A DNA stretch of 64,000 bases from a virus (Duplodnaviria; Caudoviricetes): IMG/VR virus record IMGVR_UViG_3300021440_000022, positions 382-64,381 of that record; one strand, written 5' to 3'. Every line of letters starts with the position of its first letter. Position 1 is the first letter of the stretch. A program made the position numbers and the translations under genes. Positions 1 to 8,758 of the stretch are shown here, one piece after another. Under the pieces are notes generated by a model that saw only the letters and a list, made by a program, of their open reading frames with translations, ran no database searches and was not told the DNA's origin.

Positions 1-3000
1 GCGCCAGGGCCTCGCGTTGCTCCGGCGTGTGGCGGTCCACGCTCAGGCTCGCGTCGTTGCCGGCTGGCGCGGTGGCGGCGCTTTGGCTGGTGGCCTGGCT
101 GCTTGCCTGGCTGCTGGAGTACTCCTTCATCGCCTGCACGACGGCATCGCGCGCGGCCATTACGTCGCTCAGGTACTTGTCGGTGCCGTACGGGCGCTCG
201 TTGCGCAGGCGCTCCAGCACGCCGTTGAGGAAGTCGCGCACGGCGCCGAGCACGCGCTGGAACAGGCCCGGTCGGCCCTCCTGCAGGCCGCGCCAGAACG
301 CGGGATCGGTGAAGTTGTCGCCGACGATGTCAGCCACCAGTTCCTCGCGGACCGTCTGCGCGCTTGGGACGGTCAGCGCGGCGTTGTTGTAGGTCTTGGC
401 GATCTCCCTGAAGTGCTCACCAGGGTCCTTGATGAGCGCATCCAGCCGCTCAGCGAGTCGGTCGTACAACTCCGGCTTGTCTCTGCGCATCTGGTGCAGC
501 AGCTCGTGCCCGAGCACGGACATGACCGGCCGCTTCGTGCCGGCGTTCATGAACAACAAGTCGGGCCGGCTAGACAGGGCCACACCGTTGATTCTGGCGG
601 TTCCACCTCCCTCCGACGTGAACAGCACCACGCGCTTTTTGAAGAGGGCACGCATCATCGCCACGGCCGCGAAACGTTCCTGCTCGGCTGCAGACGCACC
701 CTTCTCGATCCGCGTGATAGCCGGCGCCGCCGTCAGCGTGAACCGCCGCTCCTTGCCACCGGAAAGTTTTCGCTCCAGGTAGGCCACGGCCTCAACGTCG
801 GCAGCGCTGGCCTGGCCGCCGGCCACTGCTGCGGCTGCATCACGGCCCAGGTCAAGCTGGGCGTCCGGGTACTTCTCCGCGAGCTTTGCCAGGTGCTCGG
901 CGCGGATGAAGAAGCCGCCGTCCTTCTTGAAGGTGTACTCGTCCACCTCCTTGGCCTGAGCCAGCGTCAGGTCCTTGCGGACCACGCCCTTCAGCAGCTT
1001 TCCCTTCTGGGTGGTGTGCTCCACCAGCACGGCACCGGTGGCGGCGGCCAGCGCTTCGCCCTGCTGTGTGGCCGCAGCCTTCTCGGCTTTGGCCGCTGAC
1101 CTCGGCGCAGGCGCGGGAGCGGCCGGCGCTTGCGCCTCTTTGCCGGTCTGGACGCCTGCGCGCGGCTTCAGCTCCAGGCCCTCCATGCGGTCAAACAGTT
1201 CGTTGATGTCCTTGGCGTCGGTGTAGTCGCGGTTTATCTGCTGCGGCGGCTGCTCGTCCTTCTTCGTCTTCTCGATCACGACGACGCGCGTCATCACCTG
1301 CGTGCCGGCGCGCTCGAACGTCACGGCCGGCAGCTTGATGTCCGCCACCAGGTGCAGGCCCTCGGCCGGCCGCACGGACTTTGTGCGAGGTCCCGTGGGG
1401 TTGACCTCTGTGATCGACTGCACCGTGACCGTGGTGTCGTAGTTGTAGCCCGGGGCCCGAACCATTACGACGTCGCCCCGTTCAGCGCCGACTGGCTTCC
1501 CGACCACGCGCGCCTCCGGCTCCCAGGCCGCACTGGTCTTCAGCGTGTCGCCGCGGTAGACCGGCCCCAGGGTCGGGTGCTCGAACAGCGGCTTCAGCGG
1601 CCTCTGCTCCTCCTCGTAGAACCACTTGTCGAACTTCTTGTCGGCGGCCGGGCCCGTCGGGATCAATGCCACGATACGGCCGCCCTCGCGCAGGTGCTGC
1701 TCGGCTGCCTTCGCCAGGTGGTCGATCGCGGTCCGGCCGGCGGTGCCGAAAGGCGGGTTCATGGCGATGCCGTCGTACTTGTTGACGACGTTCAGGTCCT
1801 CGAAGTCACCGCGGATGATCTTGCCGTCGAAGACCATGGCCAGGCGCGAGCCCAGGGTGTTGCTGGGCTCTACGGCCGTGCGGTTGGCTGTCTCCGGGAA
1901 CCAGCGGGCAATGGCGCCGTGGCCGGCGCTTGGCTCCAGCGCGTCCTCGCCACCGCGCAGGTCCAGCATCTGCACCATCTTCAGGCCGACGGGCTCGGGC
2001 GTGGCGAAGTAGTCGGTGCCCTCCTTCGCCTTGGTCTTGGCCGTCTTCTTGGCCGTGCCGAAGTAGAACGCCTTCGCGCGGTCGTACTCGGTCACGGCCT
2101 CGTTGGCGAGCCGGTCACGCTCCTTGCCGCCGGTGCCCTCGCCTTCGTGGCCGGCGGGGAAGTCGCCGCTCTCCTCGAAGCCGGCGATGAACGCGTCCTT
2201 GAGCGCGCGCGCGAGCTCGCCGGTGGCCAGGTTCTCGGCGGCGCTGGCGCGCTCGGCGATCGTCTGCGCGAACGCCCACCGCTCCCAGTTCGTGCCGGTG
2301 TTGAGGTAGCGGAAGATGGCGTTGCTGACCTGGCCCGTGCGGTAGATGCGCCCTTCCTGCTGGATGCTCATCGTCGGCTGCGTCGGCAGCCCCAGGTTGA
2401 ACAGCACCCGCTGGTGCTTGCCGGTGGTGTCGTGGCCGCTCCAGCCCTTGTTCTTGGCCGACTGCACGAGCGCAACCTGCGGGCCGACGTCGTCGTCGTT
2501 GAAGCGCTTGTACCTGGCCAGCAGGTCCGGCTTCTTCTCGTCGCCGTTGATGAGCAAGACGCCAGGGAACTCGCGCTTGAACCTGGTGATTGGCGACACC
2601 AGTTCGGCCAGCAGGCGGTCGCCGGCGAGGTTTGGAAATGCGTTCCTGAACTCCGCGGCGGCGGCGTTGCGGGCCTCCAGCACGGCCTTGTACTTGTCGA
2701 ACCCCTCCTCGTCCATGTGATCTGGGCGCCTCAGTGGCGCATCGATCTGGGCGAAGGCGAAAGGGTTGCGCGAGCCGCCCTTCTTGAAGTCGTGGAAGAC
2801 CACCACCTTGCGGCCGATGGCCATGTGGTCGCGCACGTGCTGGATCACCTCCTTGGCCTTGATCGCCTCCAGCAGGTACCGGCGCACCAGGTGCCCGGTC
2901 TTGCCGAACAACTGGTCGTTCAGTTCGGCCTCGATGAAGGCCCAGCCGTCCACCGCATCCTCCTTGTCCTTCTTCTCGATCCTGGATGTCTTGGCCTGGT

Positions 3001-6000
3001 CGCGGATCCACTCGATCGCGCGGTCAATCTCGTTGCCCACCGCCGACTCGGCAAGGATGAAGCGGCGGTCGTAGTCGGCATCGACGTCGAGCATGCGCCC
3101 AGACAGCACGCCCTGCTTCTTCAGCCAGCCGTTGAACTGGCGCTGCAGCAGGCCTCGGTCAACCTTCGAGTCCGGCTCCGTGAGCTTGCCATAGCGCATG
3201 CGGTAACCGAAGTGCTGCATGAAGAACTTCTCGCGGGCGCCGCCCTCGTTGTAGCCTGGGCTCGCCTGCTCTTTCGCGCCAGCCCCGTCCGGGTCGTAGT
3301 CGAAGAGGTAGCCGTCGGCCCAGTCCACCGTCTTCTCGTAGGCGAACGGCGTTGCCGACAGGCCTGCCACGCGCGTGCGCTTCTCGCCCTGCCTGGCCGC
3401 CACATCTTCCTCGACGCGTTTGCGGGCCTCTTTCAGTTTCTTGTTCAGCGGCTCGTAGCGCTGGCGCAGCGCCTCGATCTGGGCGTCCAGATTCTTCCTC
3501 TGCTCGGCCCCGGTTCCGAGCCGATCCTTCTCAAGCTTGGCGATCTGGTCCGACAGGTCGCGGCGCGTGTTCACGTCGTCGCGGTTGAGCATGGCGAAGC
3601 GGTCGCTGACGCCGCGCGGGTGCAGCGTGATCGCCCGCAGCGCGTCCAGCGCCTTGGTCTGCTTGCCGTCGGCCGACTGCATCAGCATGTGCACTTCGTC
3701 CGGCACCACCAGGTCCCAGGAGCGGCCGGCCAGGGCATCGTTCTCGCCCAGGTTCGCGTAGGTCGTGATCGTCACGCCGCGGCCGGCATCCTTCGTGTCC
3801 GCCAGCGCCTTGATGTCGAGCCCCAACGACGTCCCCGACTCGATCCAGTCGGCCATGATCTTGGCATCCGGCACGACGATCAGGACGTCACGCTTGCCGG
3901 CTCGGACGAAGCGCTTGACGATGCCGAGTCCGCTGAAGGTCTTGCCGGTCCCCGTCCCGTTTGTAAACAGCATGCCGTAGCCGCCTGGCTTCGAGAACCG
4001 CTGCTCGGCCTTGAACACGTCGTCCTGCTGGCCTGGTTGCAGGTATGGCAACGTCGCCCGGATGTTGTCGATCCCGGGCTCCTGCTTCACCGATTCGGCG
4101 GCGCGCTGGGCTGCTCGCTTTTCCGTAGCACTGGCCCACGCAGCAGTAGGCCGCGCAGCCGGTCCTGCTGGCCTGGGGTCAGGCTGAACTCCCGGGATGC
4201 CAGGATCGTCGCTTCGCTCACCGTCGTCAGTTCCGGCATCGAAGAGCGAAGGCTCTGCCGCCCGGCCGCTTCCACGTAGCGGCTGATCGCCAAGTTCTCG
4301 AAGAGGAGAGGCGCCACCAGTAGGTACGCCCGCGTTGTCCGGGCGTCCGCGCCGAGCGCTTCCAGTTCGTTTTCCATCGGTCTGAGGGCCTTCACCAAGT
4401 CCTCGGCCTGAAAGAGCTTCTCCCACCTCTCGCTCGACATTTCCTGCGTCGCCGCGATCTCGTTCCACACCGGTGTCGGCGTCTCGTACATTGCCCTGCT
4501 CCTCTGCGGCCGCAGCCGTCTCGTCCAGCTTGCCAAGTGGCGTCATGTCGGTCTGGAGCGCCGCAGCGCGGGGGTCGTAGTAGACCGCCGCATACCAGCT
4601 CTTCAGGTATGGGCGCACCACCTCGCCCAAGTCATCGATCATTGCCTTCGCGTAGGCAGCGAACGTGCGCGCACCCTTCTCAATGTGGTAGCCGGTCAGC
4701 GTGATGCCGGCCTGGAACACCTCCGGGTCCAGCGCCCCGCCTTGGCCCTTCTTCGTGCCTGGCCGGCCTGGCTGCTCCAGCTTCTTGCGCAGCAGCGCCC
4801 GGGCCCGCTCGGCGGCGTCCTCGGTGAAGATCGTGTTCTTGCTGACTTCCTGTTTTCCCGACTCTTTTGTGGGCGGTGGTGCCGGCGGAACAGCTTCGGC
4901 CGCCGCTGGTGCCAGTGCTGCCGGCGCAGCTTCGATGCCAAGGTCCCGTTGCGTCAGCCCAAGCTTCTCCATCATTGGCGCCAGCAGGCTCACCGGCTTG
5001 TCGCCCAACAGCACCGCACCTATGGCGTCGGCAATGATCTCGTCTGGCTTCCTGGCGTGCCGCCGAAACCGATCATTGGCGTGGTTGTGCACGCCCGGCC
5101 TGAACTCGCGCGAGGCAGCTACCAGGTCGTCCCAGTTGGAGATGTAGCGCTGCACCTCGCTCTTCGGGAACCCGCGGAACCCCAACTGGCGCTTTTTCAT
5201 CACCACGTGGCCAAGCTCGTGAGCGAAGACATGTGCCTTTGACACGTCGCGCTGGCTATCAACGTCGCCGTCAGGGATCGTCACCATGTCGCCGGTGGCG
5301 TGCCAACCGCCTGCACTCTCTGTGACGCTCACTCCGAGGGATTTCGCGACGGCCATCAGCCGCTCGATCCTTGCCCGGCCGGCAGACTGCGCCACCGGCT
5401 CAGCGGTCGGCGCTACCCCAGCGGCTTGTACACCGGCGCCGGTGGCAGTGGGTACTCCCGGCCTGGCGGCTGGGATGCTTGGTGCTGGCGCTGGCGCTTC
5501 AACTGGCGCGGCTTCTGCTGCTGGTGGGGCTGCATCGGTGGGCTGACCTTTCGCTTCGGTGGTGGTTGGCTTGGCCGTCTCGGCCGGGAAGAACTTCTGG
5601 CGCGGGCCCAGGGCGCGAGCGGCCTTGACCGCAGTCAGCGCTTCTTCGGTGCTGGCCCCGGCCGGCACCCGCACGGGTTCCCCACTGTCATAGTCCAGCA
5701 GCTCGTGGCCTTCCAGCCACGGCGTGTGCGTCCCGTCTGGGTTCGTGCGCAGCTCCAGCGGCACCGCCTGCTTCGGCGTAATGCCTACCCGGGCGATCAC
5801 GCGAGTGGCGTCAGCGCCTCTTCCACCGACCAGCCGAGTTCCAGCCGCTGTCGAATCGTTGACGGAACCATCCCGAGTTCGCGTGCCCACCTTTTCAGTG
5901 GTTGCGACCGCCCCTGGTGTTCCAGCATTCTGTGCTTGCTGCCGGGCAGCATCTTGCCGACCAGCAGGATCTTCTCTGCCGGCAAACCTCGGTTCATCCG

Positions 6001-8758
6001 TGCGTACAGCGTCGTTGCCCGCACCCCCAGTTCGCGAGACCACTCGGCCAGAGTCTGCGTCTTGCCGTTGTACTCCAGGAGCCTGACGAACCCCGGCCGG
6101 TTCTGCGACTGCTGCTCCTTTGTCGCCCACCGGACGTTGCCCGGCTGATACCCCAGACAGCCCTTTATCCGGTCCACTGAGTGCTGCGGCGTCGGCTTGG
6201 GGCCCAGTTCCTCCAGGAACAGCAGAAAGTCGGCCTCCCACTCCGGGCACATCTTGATCCCCTTCGCGCCGTACTCCGGGTAGTCGCGGCAATTCGGGTC
6301 GTTGCACCGACGTCGCGCGTGCTGCCACGCTGTCCACTCCGGGCTTCTGGTCATTCTGTGTTTCGTCATGCCCCTTATTGTAGGAGTCGCTGGTAGCGCT
6401 CGGGAACTCGCGAACCAATGGGAGTAGCTTCGTGATCGGAGCATCAAGGCGAATTACCGATACCGGTTCACCATCGTCAAGTTTCGCGAGCCACTGGTGA
6501 TGGCCGTCAAGCACATAGCCATCGGACGAAACAAGGATAGATCGATTGGTGTCTGTGAACCCCTTGGCCTGAGCCACCTTGGCAGGTGAGAACTCGGCCT
6601 GTGTCGGTTTTAGGTCTTCGGCCGGCACGGCAGCCTCCGCAGCGTAGTCAACGCCACGAGCGCGCAGGAACTGCACCAGGGCGCTTCTATCGCCAGCCTT
6701 GATCTGTGGCATCTCGGCGCGCGGCACACCCTTCGTGCCGGTGTCTGGCTTGAACTCAGCCCAGTCGTTCTGGGGCGACGTGGCCGCGGCGTGGGCTGCC
6801 TCGTCGATGCCAGCAGCGGCAGGGGCCGGCGCAGGAACCTGGTCAGCCGGCTCGCTCAGGCCGCTGTAGTCGGGCTCGGCGGCAGCCGGTGTTCCAGTTT
6901 TTGCTGCCTCCGTCCCAGTTTCGGCCGCTTTCGTCTCGCCGGCCTGGGCCGCACGCTCCTCCGGCAGCACCACCGGCCCAGCTTCCAGCGAATCCAGCAC
7001 GTGCACGTCAACCGGCGCACCCACCAGGTCACGCTTCTGCAGGGCCTGCACGAACCGAGAGTAGAAGGGCCCGAGCTGGGCGGCCGGGATCCCCTCTGCC
7101 GCGGCCTTGGCCCGCGCCACCGCGCTCGGCGGGATGCCGTACTGGGCCGCCGTGTTCTCGAAAATCGCCGTCGTCTTCGAGCGCTGCGTCTTGGCGTCGT
7201 CCGACACCAGCGGCGGCTCCACGCGGAAACCGCGGGCGTTGGCAATGGCGTATGGATTGGCGCCCCACTTGTCCACTGCCATGCGCTCGGCCTGGGTCAG
7301 TCCGCTGCGCGCCACCGCAGCGTCTGCTTGGCGCATCGCGTCACGGCCCTGGACGATCGCCGCTGGACCGCCGCCCATCACCGCGGTCTGGCCGATGGTG
7401 ACCTTCAGCGTCTCGCCGGCCTGCTCAAGGTAGTCCTGCAGCGTCGCGTTGGGCGACTGAGCCGCCGGTCCGGCCTTGTCGGCCAGGAACTGAATCGCCG
7501 TGGTTAGTTGCTCGCCCGGGATCTCCTTGCGGATCAGTTCGCCGAATGTCTTGGCCATCTCGCCCGGCGGCAAGTCGCGCACAACGCCCTTCAGCAACTT
7601 GATCTGCTGCGTGAATCCGAAGCGCTCTCCAAGCACTTCCGCGGCACCCATGATCCCGGCTCGGGAAAGCGAGTCCTGCATGCTGAACCCGGAGTTCCTA
7701 CCGGTGTTGTACTCCGACAGGGCCGTCTGCGTGAACAGGGCGCGCATGGCGGGACCGCCGCCAAGCCCAACGACCAGCGTCGGCACGGATTGCCCGATGC
7801 TGTTCGTGACGTCGGCCACCAGCTTTTTGGTGCCCTGCATGTCCTGCATCGCACCGCTTTGAAACACGTCCCCTTCTTTTGAAGCGGCGCCAGCAATCCC
7901 GGCCACCGTGTCAAGGCCAGCGAGGTCTGCCGCCAGGCGAACCGCACCGAACAACGAATTGCTGACGCCCACGCTGGCGGTTACTGCGCCTCTGGCTACC
8001 GGGTTGTCCGTGAAGTCACGGAAGTTTGCGGCGGCCTCTTGCGTCGGACTGAGGGCGGTCAGGTACTGGGGCCCGCGCGCGTTTTGCTCACGGATCTTGC
8101 GCAGTTGCTTGAGCCGCTCCGGCTCGATGGAGCCTTCCTCAATCTGCGCGTCAGAGTACCCAGGTCGCGGCGGCACCTTGTCCATGAAGGCGCCAAATGT
8201 TTCAGGTCCTTTGACTGGCGCCCCGCCACGGCCGCCGATGTTCCAGCGCGGAGCCGCTTGTGATGACGGGGGCGCCGCATTCTGCTCCTGGTCCAATTTG
8301 GCGGCTTCAGAGTCATGCAGCCGCTGTGCGTACTCTGTGGCCGCCTCTGGGGTCTTGAAAACACCAAGGTGCCTGCCAGTCTTACGGTACTGGTCGATGG
8401 CCTCTTCGTCGCTCATTACGCGCCCGGCATCGCTCACGGTAGGCATCAGGACTTCGCGGCCGTCGATGTTCGCGCTGATCGACCGAACCGTGCTGGTAGA
8501 GCCGTCACCATTCTTGACGCGCGGCCGGTTCGACATGTCGATGTTGCCGGCCTCAAGCTGGTCAGACGCCAGCGACGGGTTGGTGACGCCGCGTCCCCCC
8601 GCGACACCCGACGGCCTGACGCCATCCGGAAGAGGCTTCCGTGCCTCGGCGGTGCGAAGTGCGTCCGTCTGCTGGCGCGCCACCCGAGCGATCACGTCGT
8701 CCGGGGTACCCTCCTCGAAGTCGAGGACCGTGCCGTCATACAGTTCTGCTTGTGGCAT
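1..8758 (-). CDS. Giant polyvalent virion/ejection protein (DarB-like), N-terminal >=2919 aa, runs off window start; ParB-like domain, two HExxH zincins, SF2 helicase, N6-adenine methyltransferase
   Basis: ATG at 8758 abuts the upstream TGA (8759-8761). Absent from the ORF track because no stop is reached; long plus-strand antisense shadow ORFs share its register. Motifs read by hand: VLDGHHQW (~6490-6515), AHELGH (~5210), GTGTGKT (~3940-3960), DEVH (~3690), SATP, QQEGRIYR, YFATPE, EPSAGHG, NPPF (~1750), GHELLH..EELVAD (~330-510). Confidence 0.9.
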   Translation of the reverse strand, partial: MPQAELYDGTVLDFEEGTPDDVIARVARQQTDALRTAEARKPLPDGVRPSGVAGGRGVTNPSLASDQLEAGNIDMSNRPRVKNGDGSTSTVRSISANIDGREVLMPTVSDAGRVMSDEEAIDQYRKTGRHLGVFKTPEAATEYAQRLHDSEAAKLDQEQNAAPPSSQAAPRWNIGGRGGAPVKGPETFGAFMDKVPPRPGYSDAQIEEGSIEPERLKQLRKIREQNARGPQYLTALSPTQEAAANFRDFTDNPVARGAVTASVGVSNSLFGAVRLAADLAGLDTVAGIAGAASKEGDVFQSGAMQDMQGTKKLVADVTNSIGQSVPTLVVGLGGGPAMRALFTQTALSEYNTGRNSGFSMQDSLSRAGIMGAAEVLGERFGFTQQIKLLKGVVRDLPPGEMAKTFGELIRKEIPGEQLTTAIQFLADKAGPAAQSPNATLQDYLEQAGETLKVTIGQTAVMGGGPAAIVQGRDAMRQADAAVARSGLTQAERMAVDKWGANPYAIANARGFRVEPPLVSDDAKTQRSKTTAIFENTAAQYGIPPSAVARAKAAAEGIPAAQLGPFYSRFVQALQKRDLVGAPVDVHVLDSLEAGPVVLPEERAAQAGETKAAETGTEAAKTGTPAAAEPDYSGLSEPADQVPAPAPAAAGIDEAAHAAATSPQNDWAEFKPDTGTKGVPRAEMPQIKAGDRSALVQFLRARGVDYAAEAAVPAEDLKPTQAEFSPAKVAQAKGFTDTNRSILVSSDGYVLDGHHQWLAKLDDGEPVSVIRLDAPITKLLPLVREFPSATSDSYNKGHDETQNDQKPGVDSVAARATSVQRPELPRLPGVRREGDQDVPGVGGRLSAVPGGTGPQADAAALSGPDKGLSGVSAGQRPVGDKGAAVAEPAGVRQAPGVQRQDADSGRVVSRTGGAGNDAVRTDEPRFAGREDPAGRQDAARQQAQNAGTPGAVATTEKVGTRTRDGSVNDSTAAGTRLVGGRGADATRVIARVGITPKQAVPLELRTNPDGTHTPWLEGHELLDYDSGEPVRVPAGASTEEALTAVKAARALGPRQKFFPAETAKPTTTEAKGQPTDAAPPAAEAAPVEAPAPAPSIPAARPGVPTATGAGVQAAGVAPTAEPVAQSAGRARIERLMAVAKSLGVSVTESAGGWHATGDMVTIPDGDVDSQRDVSKAHVFAHELGHVVMKKRQLGFRGFPKSEVQRYISNWDDLVAASREFRPGVHNHANDRFRRHARKPDEIIADAIGAVLLGDKPVSLLAPMMEKLGLTQRDLGIEAAPAALAPAAAEAVPPAPPPTKESGKQEVSKNTIFTEDAAERARALLRKKLEQPGRPGTKKGQGGALDPEVFQAGITLTGYHIEKGARTFAAYAKAMIDDLGEVVRPYLKSWYAAVYYDPRAAALQTDMTPLGKLDETAAAAEEQGNVRDADTGVERDRGDAGNVEREVGEALSGRGLGEGPQTDGKRTGSARRGRPDNAGVPTGGASPLRELGDQPLRGSGRAAEPSLFDAGTDDGERSDDPGIPGVQPDPRPAGPAARPTAAWASATEKRAAQRAAESVKQEPGIDNIRATLPYLQPGQQDDVFKAEQRFSKPGGYGMLFTNGTGTGKTFSGLGIVKRFVRAGKRDVLIVVPDAKIMADWIESGTSLGLDIKALADTKDAGRGVTITTYANLGENDALAGRSWDLVVPDEVHMLMQSADGKQTKALDALRAITLHPRGVSDRFAMLNRDDVNTRRDLSDQIAKLEKDRLGTGAEQRKNLDAQIEALRQRYEPLNKKLKEARKRVEEDVAARQGEKRTRVAGLSATPFAYEKTVDWADGYLFDYDPDGAGAKEQASPGYNEGGAREKFFMQHFGYRMRYGKLTEPDSKVDRGLLQRQFNGWLKKQGVLSGRMLDVDADYDRRFILAESAVGNEIDRAIEWIRDQAKTSRIEKKDKEDAVDGWAFIEAELNDQLFGKTGHLVRRYLLEAIKAKEVIQHVRDHMAIGRKVVVFHDFKKGGSRNPFAFAQIDAPLRRPDHMDEEGFDKYKAVLEARNAAAAEFRNAFPNLAGDRLLAELVSPITRFKREFPGVLLINGDEKKPDLLARYKRFNDDDVGPQVALVQSAKNKGWSGHDTTGKHQRVLFNLGLPTQPTMSIQQEGRIYRTGQVSNAIFRYLNTGTNWERWAFAQTIAERASAAENLATGELARALKDAFIAGFEESGDFPAGHEGEGTGGKERDRLANEAVTEYDRAKAFYFGTAKKTAKTKAKEGTDYFATPEPVGLKMVQMLDLRGGEDALEPSAGHGAIARWFPETANRTAVEPSNTLGSRLAMVFDGKIIRGDFEDLNVVNKYDGIAMNPPFGTAGRTAIDHLAKAAEQHLREGGRIVALIPTGPAADKKFDKWFYEEEQRPLKPLFEHPTLGPVYRGDTLKTSAAWEPEARVVGKPVGAERGDVVMVRAPGYNYDTTVTVQSITEVNPTGPRTKSVRPAEGLHLVADIKLPAVTFERAGTQVMTRVVVIEKTKKDEQPPQQINRDYTDAKDINELFDRMEGLELKPRAGVQTGKEAQAPAAPAPAPRSAAKAEKAAATQQGEALAAATGAVLVEHTTQKGKLLKGVVRKDLTLAQAKEVDEYTFKKDGGFFIRAEHLAKLAEKYPDAQLDLGRDAAAAVAGGQASAADVEAVAYLERKLSGGKERRFTLTAAPAITRIEKGASAAEQERFAAVAMMRALFKKRVVLFTSEGGGTARINGVALSSRPDLLFMNAGTKRPVMSVLGHELLHQMRRDKPELYDRLAERLDALIKDPGEHFREIAKTYNNAALTVPSAQTVREELVADIVGDNFTDPAFWRGLQEGRPGLFQRVLGAVRDFLNGVLERLRNERPYGTDKYLSDVMAARDAVVQAMKEYSSSQASSQATSQSAATAPAGNDASLSVDRHTPEQREALA
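4087..4491 (-). CDS. Nested (overprinted, +1 frame) 134-aa helical protein inside the giant gene
   Basis: GAGGAG-7nt-ATG; protein-like composition (MYETPTPVWNEIAATQEMSSERWEKLFQAEDL...). The host frame here is stop-free (checked codon by codon) but reads as an R/G/D-rich linker. Confidence 0.7.
   Translation of the reverse strand: MYETPTPVWNEIAATQEMSSERWEKLFQAEDLVKALRPMENELEALGADARTTRAYLLVAPLLFENLAISRYVEAAGRQSLRSSMPELTTVSEATILASREFSLTPGQQDRLRGLLLRGPVLRKSEQPSAPPNR
5797..6369 (-). CDS. Nested (overprinted, +1 frame) HNH-like homing endonuclease-family protein, 190 aa
   Basis: W..ARRRC..P...YPEYGAKGIKMCPEW..F..F...GPKP..HSVDRI....YQPGNVRWAT..QQSQNR plus two C-terminal 'G..TL.EW.RELG...T..R' HTH-like repeats; host frame checked stop-free across it. 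Confidence 0.85.
   Translation of the reverse strand: MTKHRMTRSPEWTAWQHARRRCNDPNCRDYPEYGAKGIKMCPEWEADFLLFLEELGPKPTPQHSVDRIKGCLGYQPGNVRWATKEQQSQNRPGFVRLLEYNGKTQTLAEWSRELGVRATTLYARMNRGLPAEKILLVGKMLPGSKHRMLEHQGRSQPLKRWARELGMVPSTIRQRLELGWSVEEALTPLA
6370..6406 (-). promoter_or_regulatory. Candidate internal sigma70 promoter for a leaderless transcript of the nested HNH gene
   Basis: TACAAT (6382-6377) lies 7 nt before the ATG; weak TTCCCG -35 with 18-nt spacer. Confidence 0.5.

What the first reader, a model, noticed from the sequence alone, without database searches (positions are those of the whole stretch)
5797..6382. Homing-endonuclease-like gene overprinted inside an intact giant virion gene, with no intron or intein
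Seen: a full 190-aa HNH-type ORF lies on the same strand in the +1 frame of the giant ORF. The giant frame has no stop across it (checked codon by codon, 5761-6660) and reads as an R/G/D/A-rich linker. TACAAT sits 7 nt before its ATG. Known: homing endonucleases usually avoid disrupting host genes by sitting in introns, inteins or intergenic space. Inference: a further route, in which the insert is tolerated as a disordered linker of a modular injected protein and expressed from an internal promoter. The usual DRIDN reads DRIKG, so it may be a domesticated DNA-binding protein.
Basis: partly seen in the sequence, partly recalled or inferred. Interest (0 to 1): 0.9.

Follow-up and report, generated by a model that had tools for sequence, protein, structure and literature searches.

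The report
Endonuclease gene hidden inside giant phage gene
An intact homing-endonuclease-type gene sits out of frame inside a giant phage virion-protein gene whose own frame reads straight through it as a floppy linker, an arrangement first described in 2025 and here found again in phages of Gram-negative bacteria.

Summary
A 190-aa ORF (minus strand, 6369..5797) lies in the +1 frame of a giant ORF (8758..2, still open at the window edge). It matches phrog_3377 "HNH endonuclease" over its full length (E 4e-52). The giant frame has no stop across it and reads G/A/R/V/D-rich.

Both the GC3 signal and purifying selection belong to the HNH frame; the giant frame is conserved only in staying open. 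Chance of that openness is 0.01-0.06 for the window. The same arrangement, always HNH = giant +1, occurs in at least seven other polyvalent-protein genes, including three from isolate genomes. These HNHs fall into two clusters of the family tree.

There is no room for an intron: 13 nt lie between the ParB-like domain and the ATG, and the stop overlaps the next domain. There was no Rfam hit, and an out-of-frame gene cannot be an intein.

The linker idea holds. The TACAAT promoter and the "DRIKG = domesticated" ideas do not.

The route is not new. Arsenault et al. 2025 (PMC11855218) described "hidden" out-of-frame HNH insertions in mycobacteriophage methylases. This is an independent case in another host-gene class, now with statistical evidence for selection.

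The parts
2..8758 (-). Giant polyvalent (PLxRFG/DarB-like) virion-protein ORF. It has 2919 codons in the window and continues past the window start.
   Evidence: No stop in frame. Pfam hits: ResIII, Helicase_C_4, MTS. Homologues are named PLxRFG or LPD38 domain-containing protein. The gene caller's product is a single 3796-aa protein, P0003.
6383..6763 (-). DdrB-like ParB domain (giant aa 666-792), immediately upstream of the insert.
   Evidence: tblastn at 63-69% identity to the giant genes of F116-like and other phages. For most hits the homology ends at query residue 306, which is giant aa 792. GC3 is lower here, 0.60-0.65.
6370..6382 (-). 13-nt spacer holding TACAAT and an AAGGGG Shine-Dalgarno-like run just before the nested ATG.
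   Evidence: Sequence read. No -35 partner was found.
5797..6369 (-). Nested HNH-family homing-endonuclease-type gene (190 aa plus TGA), in the +1 frame of the giant ORF.
   Evidence: phrog_3377 E 4.2e-52 over residues 1-187. Homologues of 186-219 aa at 50-66% identity over 96-99% of the query. AlphaFold2 model pLDDT 93.7. The N-terminal module resembles HNH enzyme PacI at Z 6.0. GC3 signal lies in this frame. pN/pS 0.39-0.63.
5795..6370 (-). The same DNA read in the giant frame (aa 797-988): a stop-free G/A/R/V/D-rich linker.
   Evidence: Composition. pN/pS 1.3-1.6, so only openness is kept. P(open) 0.01-0.06. Seven other giant proteins carry a similar peptide.
5573..5806 (-). Conserved downstream domain (RVI..G.TP...ELR.N.DGT.TP...). 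The HNH stop codon overlaps its first codons, R-V-I.
   Evidence: Aligned with P0012 and L026. Nine further loci carry this domain behind ordinary linkers with no HNH.
4087..4491 (-). Second nested +1 ORF (133 aa, GAGGAG-7nt-ATG). It is not part of the HNH element but shows the same nesting principle.
   Evidence: GC3 signal lies in the +1 frame. Homologous ORFs lie in the +1 frame of the giant CDS of phages ZX1 and Skulduggery.

Best explanation
The element is a compact cassette: a Shine-Dalgarno-like run plus a 190-aa HNH-family endonuclease gene of the free-standing homing-endonuclease type. It sits between two domains of a giant polyvalent virion protein and makes up essentially the whole interdomain linker.

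Two products are read from the same DNA. Ribosomes translating the giant gene go straight through in frame 0 and produce about 190 residues of G/A/R/D-rich spacer, presumably disordered. Ribosomes initiating internally at ATG 6369, in frame +1, make the endonuclease.

The endonuclease frame is the older and constrained one. The linker reading is the one laid over it, and selection keeps it free of stops. No RNA or protein splicing is needed.

Shown here: the two ORFs, family membership, intactness, coding signals, selection on both frames, and recurrence in other genomes.

Inferred: both proteins are made, the HNH protein cuts DNA, and it moves or once moved by homing.
For: Family and intactness:
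- phrog_3377 E 4e-52, full length.
- 1020 phage records hold tblastn relatives.
- The nine-sequence alignment that includes the window protein has 45 invariant columns, so the window protein carries every one.
- The structure model has pLDDT 93.7 and a beta-beta-alpha element at residues 64-88. Its best structural match is the HNH enzyme PacI (Z 6.0, rmsd 2.8, 76 residues). The C-terminal repeats weakly resemble the I-TevI and I-HmuI DNA-binding domains (Z 3.9 and 3.2).

Frames:
- The GC3 signal switches to the nested frame across 6358-5759.
- pN/pS is 0.39-0.63 in the HNH frame and 1.3-1.6 in the giant frame (6 pairs).

No splicing element:
- No Rfam match at E<=1 in 4800-7400.
- Only 13 nt lie before the ATG, and the stop overlaps the next domain.

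The open frame is selected:
- 8 of 8 nested genes have 0 stops in the giant frame and 5-11 in the third frame. Each has P 0.006-0.25, and the joint value is 1e-11 to 1e-13 if the loci are treated as independent.
- Among relatives not in giant genes with GC3 >= 0.75, there are 1.64 stops per 100 codons, and 7 of 34 are stop-free over shorter matches. Among the giant-nested ones, 9 of 9 are stop-free.

Recurrence:
- Of 163 loci with an HNH relative, 17 have a same-strand frame open across the match.
- In L025, L027, L035, L036, L101 and L118 that frame is a 2753-3765-aa ORF, always with the HNH at +1. L026 is the same but cut by its contig end.
- Five of those giant ORFs were scanned, and all five carry polyvalent-protein domains.
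- L025, L027 and L036 come from isolate genome assemblies.

Other points:
- The nested HNHs form two clusters in the tree, with supports 93 and 96.
- Start codons with AGGAG or GGGAGG sit 6 nt upstream in L025 and L027.
- Insert-free relatives exist. P0012 has the same domain order with an ordinary linker of about 100 aa, and 9 of 9 further loci with the downstream domain lack the HNH.
Against: - There is no expression data for either product. No RNA run holds the stretch.
- No close insert-free allele of this particular giant gene was found, so the exact insert boundaries are inferred from distant relatives (41% identity).
- Pfam gives no HNH hit, only weak HTH_8 below its cut-off. A profile search of PDB sequences found nothing, and Foldseek found nothing at E<=0.001. 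The PacI match at Z 6.0 is below the level the tool calls safe.
- The window's Shine-Dalgarno-like run (AAGGGG) lies unusually close to the ATG.
- The eight nested loci share ancestry, so the joint probability overstates their independence.
- Two relatives show other frame relations. In L089 the HNH is in frame with the upstream part. In L029 it is in frame with the downstream part. The arrangement is therefore not uniform, or those contigs carry indels.
- No near-identical copies in different genomic backgrounds were shown, so active homing is unproven.
Confidence: 0.75

Rival explanations
1. The architecture is the same, but the HNH protein is no longer a selfish homing enzyme. It is a resident, vertically inherited partner of polyvalent proteins, a DNA-binding or nicking factor made from inside the gene. 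The cassette reaches new sites through the domain shuffling typical of these proteins.
For: The nested HNHs form two clusters with no free-standing members inside them and with deep divergence, 35-69% identity. That suggests long persistence. All family-invariant residues are kept. No near-identical copies in different backbones were shown.
Against: The distribution is patchy. The HNH is absent from P0012 and from 9 of 9 loci with the same downstream domain. It sits at different sites in non-orthologous giant genes. 146 of the 163 loci with a family relative have no same-strand frame open across the match, and phage records annotate such relatives as HNH endonuclease. The window, L026 and probably P0013 share one site next to the most conserved DNA of the gene, as expected for homing.
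Confidence: 0.17
2. The giant polypeptide is not made across the cassette. The insert splits the gene into two working halves (genes in pieces), and the open frame has no functional meaning.
For: Free-standing endonuclease genes that split phage genes are known (recalled, not checked here). In L089 and L029 the frames differ on one side of the HNH. In L026 the ORF ends about 130 codons after the cassette.
Against: The giant frame has no stop, so ribosomes have no signal to end. The open frame is kept in 8 of 8 nested loci against odds of 0.006-0.25 each, which is unexpected if read-through did not matter. Recognised domains lie in one frame on both sides in the window, L101 and L118.
Confidence: 0.05
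3. The insert is removed by splicing, as a group I or II intron carrying the HNH ORF or as an intein.
For: HNH genes often ride in phage group I introns (general knowledge). Rfam models can miss introns that contain ORFs.
Against: No Rfam match at E<=1. Only 13 nt of non-ORF sequence lie upstream and none downstream. The HNH is out of frame, so it cannot be an intein domain, and Pfam finds no Hint domain in the giant protein. Splicing would remove any reason to keep the giant frame open.
Confidence: 0.02
4. It is an assembly or sequencing artefact, either a chimeric join or compensating indels.
For: The window is a metagenomic virus contig, and read depth in the public runs is low.
Against: Contigs of runs X1 and X2 match both junctions with 0 differences and no indels. 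The same arrangement is present in three isolate genome assemblies.
Confidence: 0.01

Closest known systems
ShiLan-domain 'hidden HNH' insertion in mycobacteriophage DNA methylases (Arsenault, Gosselin & Gogarten 2025, Genes 16:178, PMC11855218; abstract and sections 3 and 4 read)
   Same: An insertion adds no stop in the host gene's frame. The HNH ORF lies in another frame, starting a few bases into the insert and ending at its last bases. No intron or intein signature is found. The in-frame reading has no recognisable fold. Insert-free homologues exist.
   Different: - The host there is a methylase of actinobacteriophages; here it is a giant polyvalent virion protein of a GC-rich phage whose relatives are proteobacterial.
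- The ShiLan HNH has flanking zinc fingers, a GTG start and no ribosome-binding site. Here the protein has a PacI-like N-terminal module plus two helix-turn-helix-like repeats, an ATG start and Shine-Dalgarno-like sequences.
- Here the insert replaces an interdomain linker rather than looping out of a domain.
- Sequence homology between the two HNHs was not tested, because I had no ShiLan sequence.
Pacc40 gp60 insertion (same paper, section 3.6)
   Same: The host protein combines helicase and methylase domains, as this giant protein does. It carries an out-of-frame ORF for an HNH-like DNA-binding protein. Relatives keep a similar gene free-standing next to the host gene.
   Different: The host protein is much smaller. 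The authors themselves call the HNH assignment less certain. No statistics on the open frame were given in the sections I read.
[quoted passage not shown]
   Same: The homing nuclease is encoded in another frame of an element that is translated through.
   Different: In that case the surrounding element is an intein that splices itself out of the protein. Here nothing splices.
Intron-encoded HNH homing endonuclease I-HmuI and the free-standing relatives in phrog_3377
   Same: The modular build of a nuclease module plus helix-turn-helix DNA-binding modules is shared. The structural resemblance is weak (Z 3.2 to I-HmuI, 3.9 to the I-TevI DNA-binding domain).
   Different: I-HmuI sits in a group I intron. 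Most relatives of the window protein stand alone between genes: 146 of 163 loci have no open same-strand frame across them.
Classical overprinting in viruses (review PMC8227390, listing and abstract only)
   Same: Two proteins are read from one stretch of DNA in different frames of the same strand.
   Different: In overprinting a new gene arises inside an old one. Here the nested gene is the old, widespread family, and the enclosing reading (the linker) is the derived one.

Membership tests
phrog_3377-type HNH endonucleases (free-standing homing-endonuclease-like genes) | Full-length match to the family profile | tested here: met
   E 4.2e-52, residues 1-187 on profile positions 4-186 of 196.
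phrog_3377-type HNH endonucleases (free-standing homing-endonuclease-like genes) | Beta-beta-alpha-metal (HNH) nuclease fold | tested here: inconclusive
   The model has strands at 64-67 and 79-82 and a helix at 84-88. The best structural match is the HNH enzyme PacI, Z 6.0 over 76 residues. Against this, there is no Pfam HNH hit, no PDB sequence hit, and no Foldseek hit at E<=0.001.
phrog_3377-type HNH endonucleases (free-standing homing-endonuclease-like genes) | Conserved family residues retained | tested here: met
   The window protein carries the 3 invariant and 15 near-invariant columns of the 65-sequence alignment. 'DRIKG' affects a variable position.
phrog_3377-type HNH endonucleases (free-standing homing-endonuclease-like genes) | Site-specific DNA cleavage and homing | not testable with these tools
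   This needs a cleavage assay and mixed infections.
Hidden out-of-frame HNH insertion elements (ShiLan type) | The insert adds no stop in the host gene's frame | tested here: met
Hidden out-of-frame HNH insertion elements (ShiLan type) | The endonuclease ORF lies in another frame and spans nearly the whole insert | tested here: met
   The ATG is 13 nt after the ParB-like domain ends, and the stop overlaps the next domain.
Hidden out-of-frame HNH insertion elements (ShiLan type) | No intron or intein features | tested here: met
   No Rfam hit, no Hint domain, and no spare sequence.
Hidden out-of-frame HNH insertion elements (ShiLan type) | Insert-free homologues of the host gene exist | tested here: inconclusive
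   Only distant ones were found: P0012 at 41% identity with the same domain order, and 9 loci with the downstream domain. No close allele was found.
Hidden out-of-frame HNH insertion elements (ShiLan type) | Sequence homology to the ShiLan HNH | not tested
   No ShiLan sequence was fetched. The kind is defined by architecture, so membership is claimed on architecture only.
Group I intron-encoded homing endonuclease | Structured intron RNA around the ORF | tested here: not met
   No Rfam match at E<=1. Less than 14 nt of flanking non-ORF sequence is present.
Intein | In-frame Hint splicing domain with an in-frame nuclease | tested here: not met
   The HNH is in frame +1, and there is no Hint domain.

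The most novel reading that the evidence does not exclude
A lineage of HNH homing genes has specialised in living inside polyvalent-protein genes. Its coding sequence has co-evolved so that its -1 reading is a stop-free flexible spacer, and each copy serves as an interdomain linker while it spreads. Its double-strand breaks and the repair tracts they trigger would help shuffle the modules of these giant anti-defence proteins. R/G/D-rich 'linkers' in polyvalent proteins would then often mark nested genes, including the second conserved +1 ORF upstream of the helicase.
Probability: 0.3. Interest if true: 0.8.

Novelty: new variant of a known kind. Interest (0 to 1): 0.6.

Why it matters
Homing endonuclease genes are usually thought to need an intron, an intein or an intergenic gap to avoid killing their host gene. 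A fourth way, being translated through in another frame, has so far rested on one computational paper about mycobacteriophage methylases.

This case shows the same solution arose or spread in a different nuclease lineage. The hosts here are the giant polyvalent proteins of phages and prophages of Gram-negative bacteria. At least eight loci were examined at the DNA level, and seven more giant proteins carry a similar read-through peptide.

It also gives what the earlier work lacked in the sections I read: a quantitative test that the host frame is kept open by selection, while only the nuclease frame is conserved as protein.

In practice, gene callers miss these nested genes and report the read-through as an unexplained low-complexity region. 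Annotation of polyvalent proteins should therefore check alternative frames.

The isolate genomes carrying the arrangement (Paracoccus hibiscisoli, Thermomonas sp. S9) make the idea testable at the bench.

Tried and rejected
**Close relatives lacking the insert**
- The search for related loci with the downstream 297 aa in viral contigs found none.
- A DNA search of 301 genomes of the family of G001 with the L025 region gave only short or rearranged matches and no empty site.
- Read laying showed no contig joining across the insert. One 57-nt skip in X4 had only 22 letters on one side, and I disregard it.

**Expression**
- No RNA holder was listed for 5400-6800. This says nothing about expression.

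**Sequence and fold searches that found nothing**
- NCBIfam: no hit for the HNH.
- PDB profile search: 0 hits at E<=1.
- Foldseek against PDB: nothing at E<=0.001.
- Promoter scan: 0 sites.

**P0013**
- Its read-through region aligns with the window's, so it probably carries a nested HNH at the same site. Its DNA could not be fetched, so it is not counted as a locus.

**Other points**
- The 7 'cover<1500' loci (frames of 117-600 aa open across the match in very GC-rich DNA) were not counted as nested in giant genes.
- Rows dropped before the tree: matches not covering query residues 15-88, and identical sequences. This left 139 rows from 163 loci plus the window.
- The FastTree has few columns and many unresolved forks. 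No AU test was run.
- I did not fold the giant-frame linker.
- Supplementary files of the papers were not seen. The survey tables of PMC11855218 may list further cases that bear on novelty.
Full report
**What is there.**
The window is almost all of a 64,381-nt IMG/VR virus record. On the minus strand a giant ORF runs from 8758 to the window edge, 2919 codons without a stop. The public gene call for this contig is one protein of 3796 aa (P0003).

Pfam finds ResIII, a Strawberry-notch-type helicase C-terminal domain and a methyltransferase domain in it. Homologues are named PLxRFG or LPD38 domain-containing proteins, and phage records call them DarB-like, structural or internal virion proteins. 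It is therefore a polyvalent protein in the sense of Iyer et al. 2017 (PMC5512222, passages read).

Inside it, offset by +1, lies a 190-codon ORF from ATG 6369 to TGA 5799-5797. The bases before the ATG read TACAATaaggggc.

**The nested ORF is a real, intact gene.**
- It matches phrog_3377 "HNH endonuclease" end to end (E 4.2e-52) and four other PHROG families annotated as HNH or restriction endonucleases.
- tblastn finds relatives in 1020 phage records.
- The closest proteins in a 5.8-billion-protein collection are 186-219 aa long, 50-66% identical and cover 96-99% of it.
- The AlphaFold2 model built on 65 sequences has mean pLDDT 93.7. It shows a beta-beta-alpha element at residues 64-88, followed by two repeats of two strands and two helices.
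- A search without Foldseek puts the HNH restriction enzyme PacI first (Z 6.0, rmsd 2.8, 76 residues, model residues 1-91). The repeats weakly resemble the DNA-binding domains of I-TevI (Z 3.9) and I-HmuI (Z 3.2).
- These Z values are below what the tool calls safe. Pfam, the PDB sequence search and Foldseek gave no HNH hit. The fold assignment therefore rests mainly on the PHROG family and is only moderately backed by structure.
The neighbouring R67 is nearly invariant and is present. L025 also reads DRIKG.

**Which frame carries the information.**
Across 6358-5759 the GC content by giant-frame codon position is about 0.84/0.62/0.45. The usual high third-position GC has moved to the nested frame. 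On either side the giant frame shows the normal pattern.

Between the window and three nested relatives, pN/pS is 0.39-0.63 in the HNH frame and 1.3-1.6 in the giant frame. Protein identity is 50-69% against 31-48%. The endonuclease sequence is under purifying selection; the giant-frame peptide is not conserved as a sequence. Its composition is G16 A15 R11 V10 D9 %, with 15% hydrophobic residues.

**Is the open giant frame chance?**
An exact calculation over synonymous codon choices gives P(no stop) = 0.063 with the HNH's own codon usage and 0.010 with the giant gene's. Empirically, the +2 frame of the giant gene is open over 191 codons in 112 of 1669 windows. One case could therefore be luck followed by survival. 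The comparative data rule that out.

**Recurrence.**
I collected 163 loci encoding relatives of the HNH from IMG/VR and from one genome per prokaryotic species. In 146 of them no same-strand frame is open across the match. In 17 one is.

- Six of the 17 are ORFs of 2753-3765 aa: L025 Paracidovorax citrulli DSM 17060, L027 Paracoccus hibiscisoli, L036 Thermomonas sp. S9, L035 a Rhodoblastus MAG, and L101 and L118 viral contigs.
- L026, a 64.7-kb Rubrivivax MAG contig, is the same but cut by the contig end.
- In all of them the HNH is at +1 relative to the large ORF.
- The five large ORFs I scanned all carry polyvalent-protein domains: LPD3, LPD38, LPD39, MuF_C, InPase, N6 methylase or SNF2.
- All eight nested genes, window included, have 0 stops in the giant frame and 5-11 in the third frame. 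Individual probabilities are 0.006-0.25.
- Relatives not in giant genes with GC3 >= 0.75 have 1.64 such stops per 100 codons. Seven of 34 are stop-free over shorter matches, against 9 of 9 for the giant-nested set, which includes two variants.
- The loci are related, so the joint figure of 1e-11 to 1e-13 overstates independence. Even so, keeping the frame open through this much divergence needs selection.
- In a FastTree of 139 distinct N-terminal modules the nested genes fall into two clusters. One holds the window, L025, L026, L089, L027, L035 and L029 (support 93). The other holds L101, L118 and L036 (support 96). Neither has free-standing members inside. The tree is poorly resolved elsewhere.
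- A phmmer search of 1.84 billion representative proteins with the read-through peptide found seven other proteins of 1249-4195 aa (E 1e-10 to 2e-4). The match lies at various positions in them. Some may be the products of the loci above.

**Position and boundaries.**
Homology of the DdrB-like ParB domain to other phages ends at giant residue 792, nt 6383. The ATG follows 13 nt later. The TGA overlaps the codons for R-V-I, which begin a conserved domain (RVI..G.TP...ELR.N.DGT.TP).

- That domain is also found directly after the cassette in L026.
- In P0012 it follows an ordinary S/T/G/A-rich linker of about 100 aa. P0012 shares the window's domain order at 41% identity.
- Nine further loci with this domain have ordinary linkers and no HNH.
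- The cassette therefore is the linker.
- The window, L026 and probably P0013 (protein only) share this site beside the best-conserved DNA of the gene. The other nested copies sit at other domain boundaries, for example just before or just after an InPase domain in L036 and L101.

**Splicing and artefact.**
- Rfam gives no match at E<=1 in 4800-7400.
- There is no spare sequence for a ribozyme.
- An out-of-frame gene cannot be an intein domain.
- Selection for an open host frame would be pointless if the insert were spliced out.
- Contigs of two public runs match both junctions without differences or indels, at low depth.
- Three isolate genome assemblies show the same arrangement.

**Expression.**
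The simple sigma-70 scan finds no promoter in 5500-6900, so TACAAT alone is not evidence. Relatives have AGGAG or GGGAGG 6 nt before the ATG (L025, L027), and others have GGAG-type runs. The window has AAGGGG close to the ATG. Internal translation initiation on the giant mRNA is the simplest reading, but it is inferred.

**Variants.**
In L089 the HNH frame is continuous with 1463 upstream codons, while the downstream part starts in the other frame. In L029 the reverse holds. These may be real fusions or splits, or indel errors in metagenomic contigs.

**Comparison with what is known.**
Two searches were run: 'homing endonuclease' with 'overlapping gene', 'alternative reading frame' and 'phage'; and 'out-of-frame' with 'HNH endonuclease', 'insertion' and 'homing'. 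Both led to Arsenault, Gosselin and Gogarten 2025 (PMC11855218; abstract and sections 3 and 4 read).

[quoted passage not shown] It adds no stop to the host frame, has no intron or intein features, and is predicted to loop out of the methylase. They describe a second case in Pacc40 gp60, a helicase-methylase.

A search for 'homing endonuclease' with 'polyvalent protein' gave four papers, none on this topic by title or abstract. The polyvalent-protein paper has no occurrence of 'homing' and mentions HNH once, in another context. I found no description of such elements in polyvalent proteins, but I could not see supplements.

**Verdict.**
The feature is real. It is a new variant of a recently described kind. 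It involves a different nuclease lineage and a different class of host gene, in phages of another bacterial phylum. It occupies interdomain linkers, has ribosome-binding sites, forms two persistent clusters, and now comes with a quantitative case that the host frame is kept open by selection.

What remains unshown is that both proteins are made and that the nuclease still homes.

Noticed in passing
window 4087-4491, minus strand: There is a second nested ORF in the +1 frame of the giant gene (133 aa, GAGGAG 7 nt before the ATG), and the GC3 signal lies in its frame. Homologous ORFs starting M[YF]QVP sit in the +1 frame of the annotated giant CDS of Klebsiella phage ZX1 and Pseudomonas phage Skulduggery. 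The giant frame is open and low-complexity across them. Six other phage records also match. There is no Pfam or PHROG family. It looks like a conserved overlapping gene just upstream of the helicase domain.
   Followed up: partly
window 6155-6316 and 6372-6542: In runs X3 (2022) and X4 (2024), the only listed contig pieces with 0 differences are these two: the 5' half of the HNH gene and the 3' end of the ParB-like domain. The other listed pieces are 85-95% alike. This could mean a ParB-end plus HNH cassette sits in other phage backbones. However, the pieces are unlinked 151-nt contigs and the table is truncated.
   Followed up: no
window 6359-6718: The ParB-like domain has lower third-position GC (0.60-0.65) than the rest of the giant gene (0.7-0.97).
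   Followed up: partly
window 5279-5638: In another stretch of the giant gene (aa 1041-1120, an A/P-rich linker) codon position 1 has higher GC than position 3. No long alternative-frame ORF was seen there.
   Followed up: no
L089:4164-14278 and L029:5574-12903: These are relatives in which the HNH is in frame with the upstream (L089) or the downstream (L029) part of the giant gene, instead of being out of frame with both. They may be natural fusions or indel errors.
   Followed up: partly
window start and P0003: The called giant protein has 3796 aa, but only 2919 codons plus 381 nt lie before the record's end. The gene must continue at the other end of the record, which implies a circularly permuted contig.
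   Followed up: no
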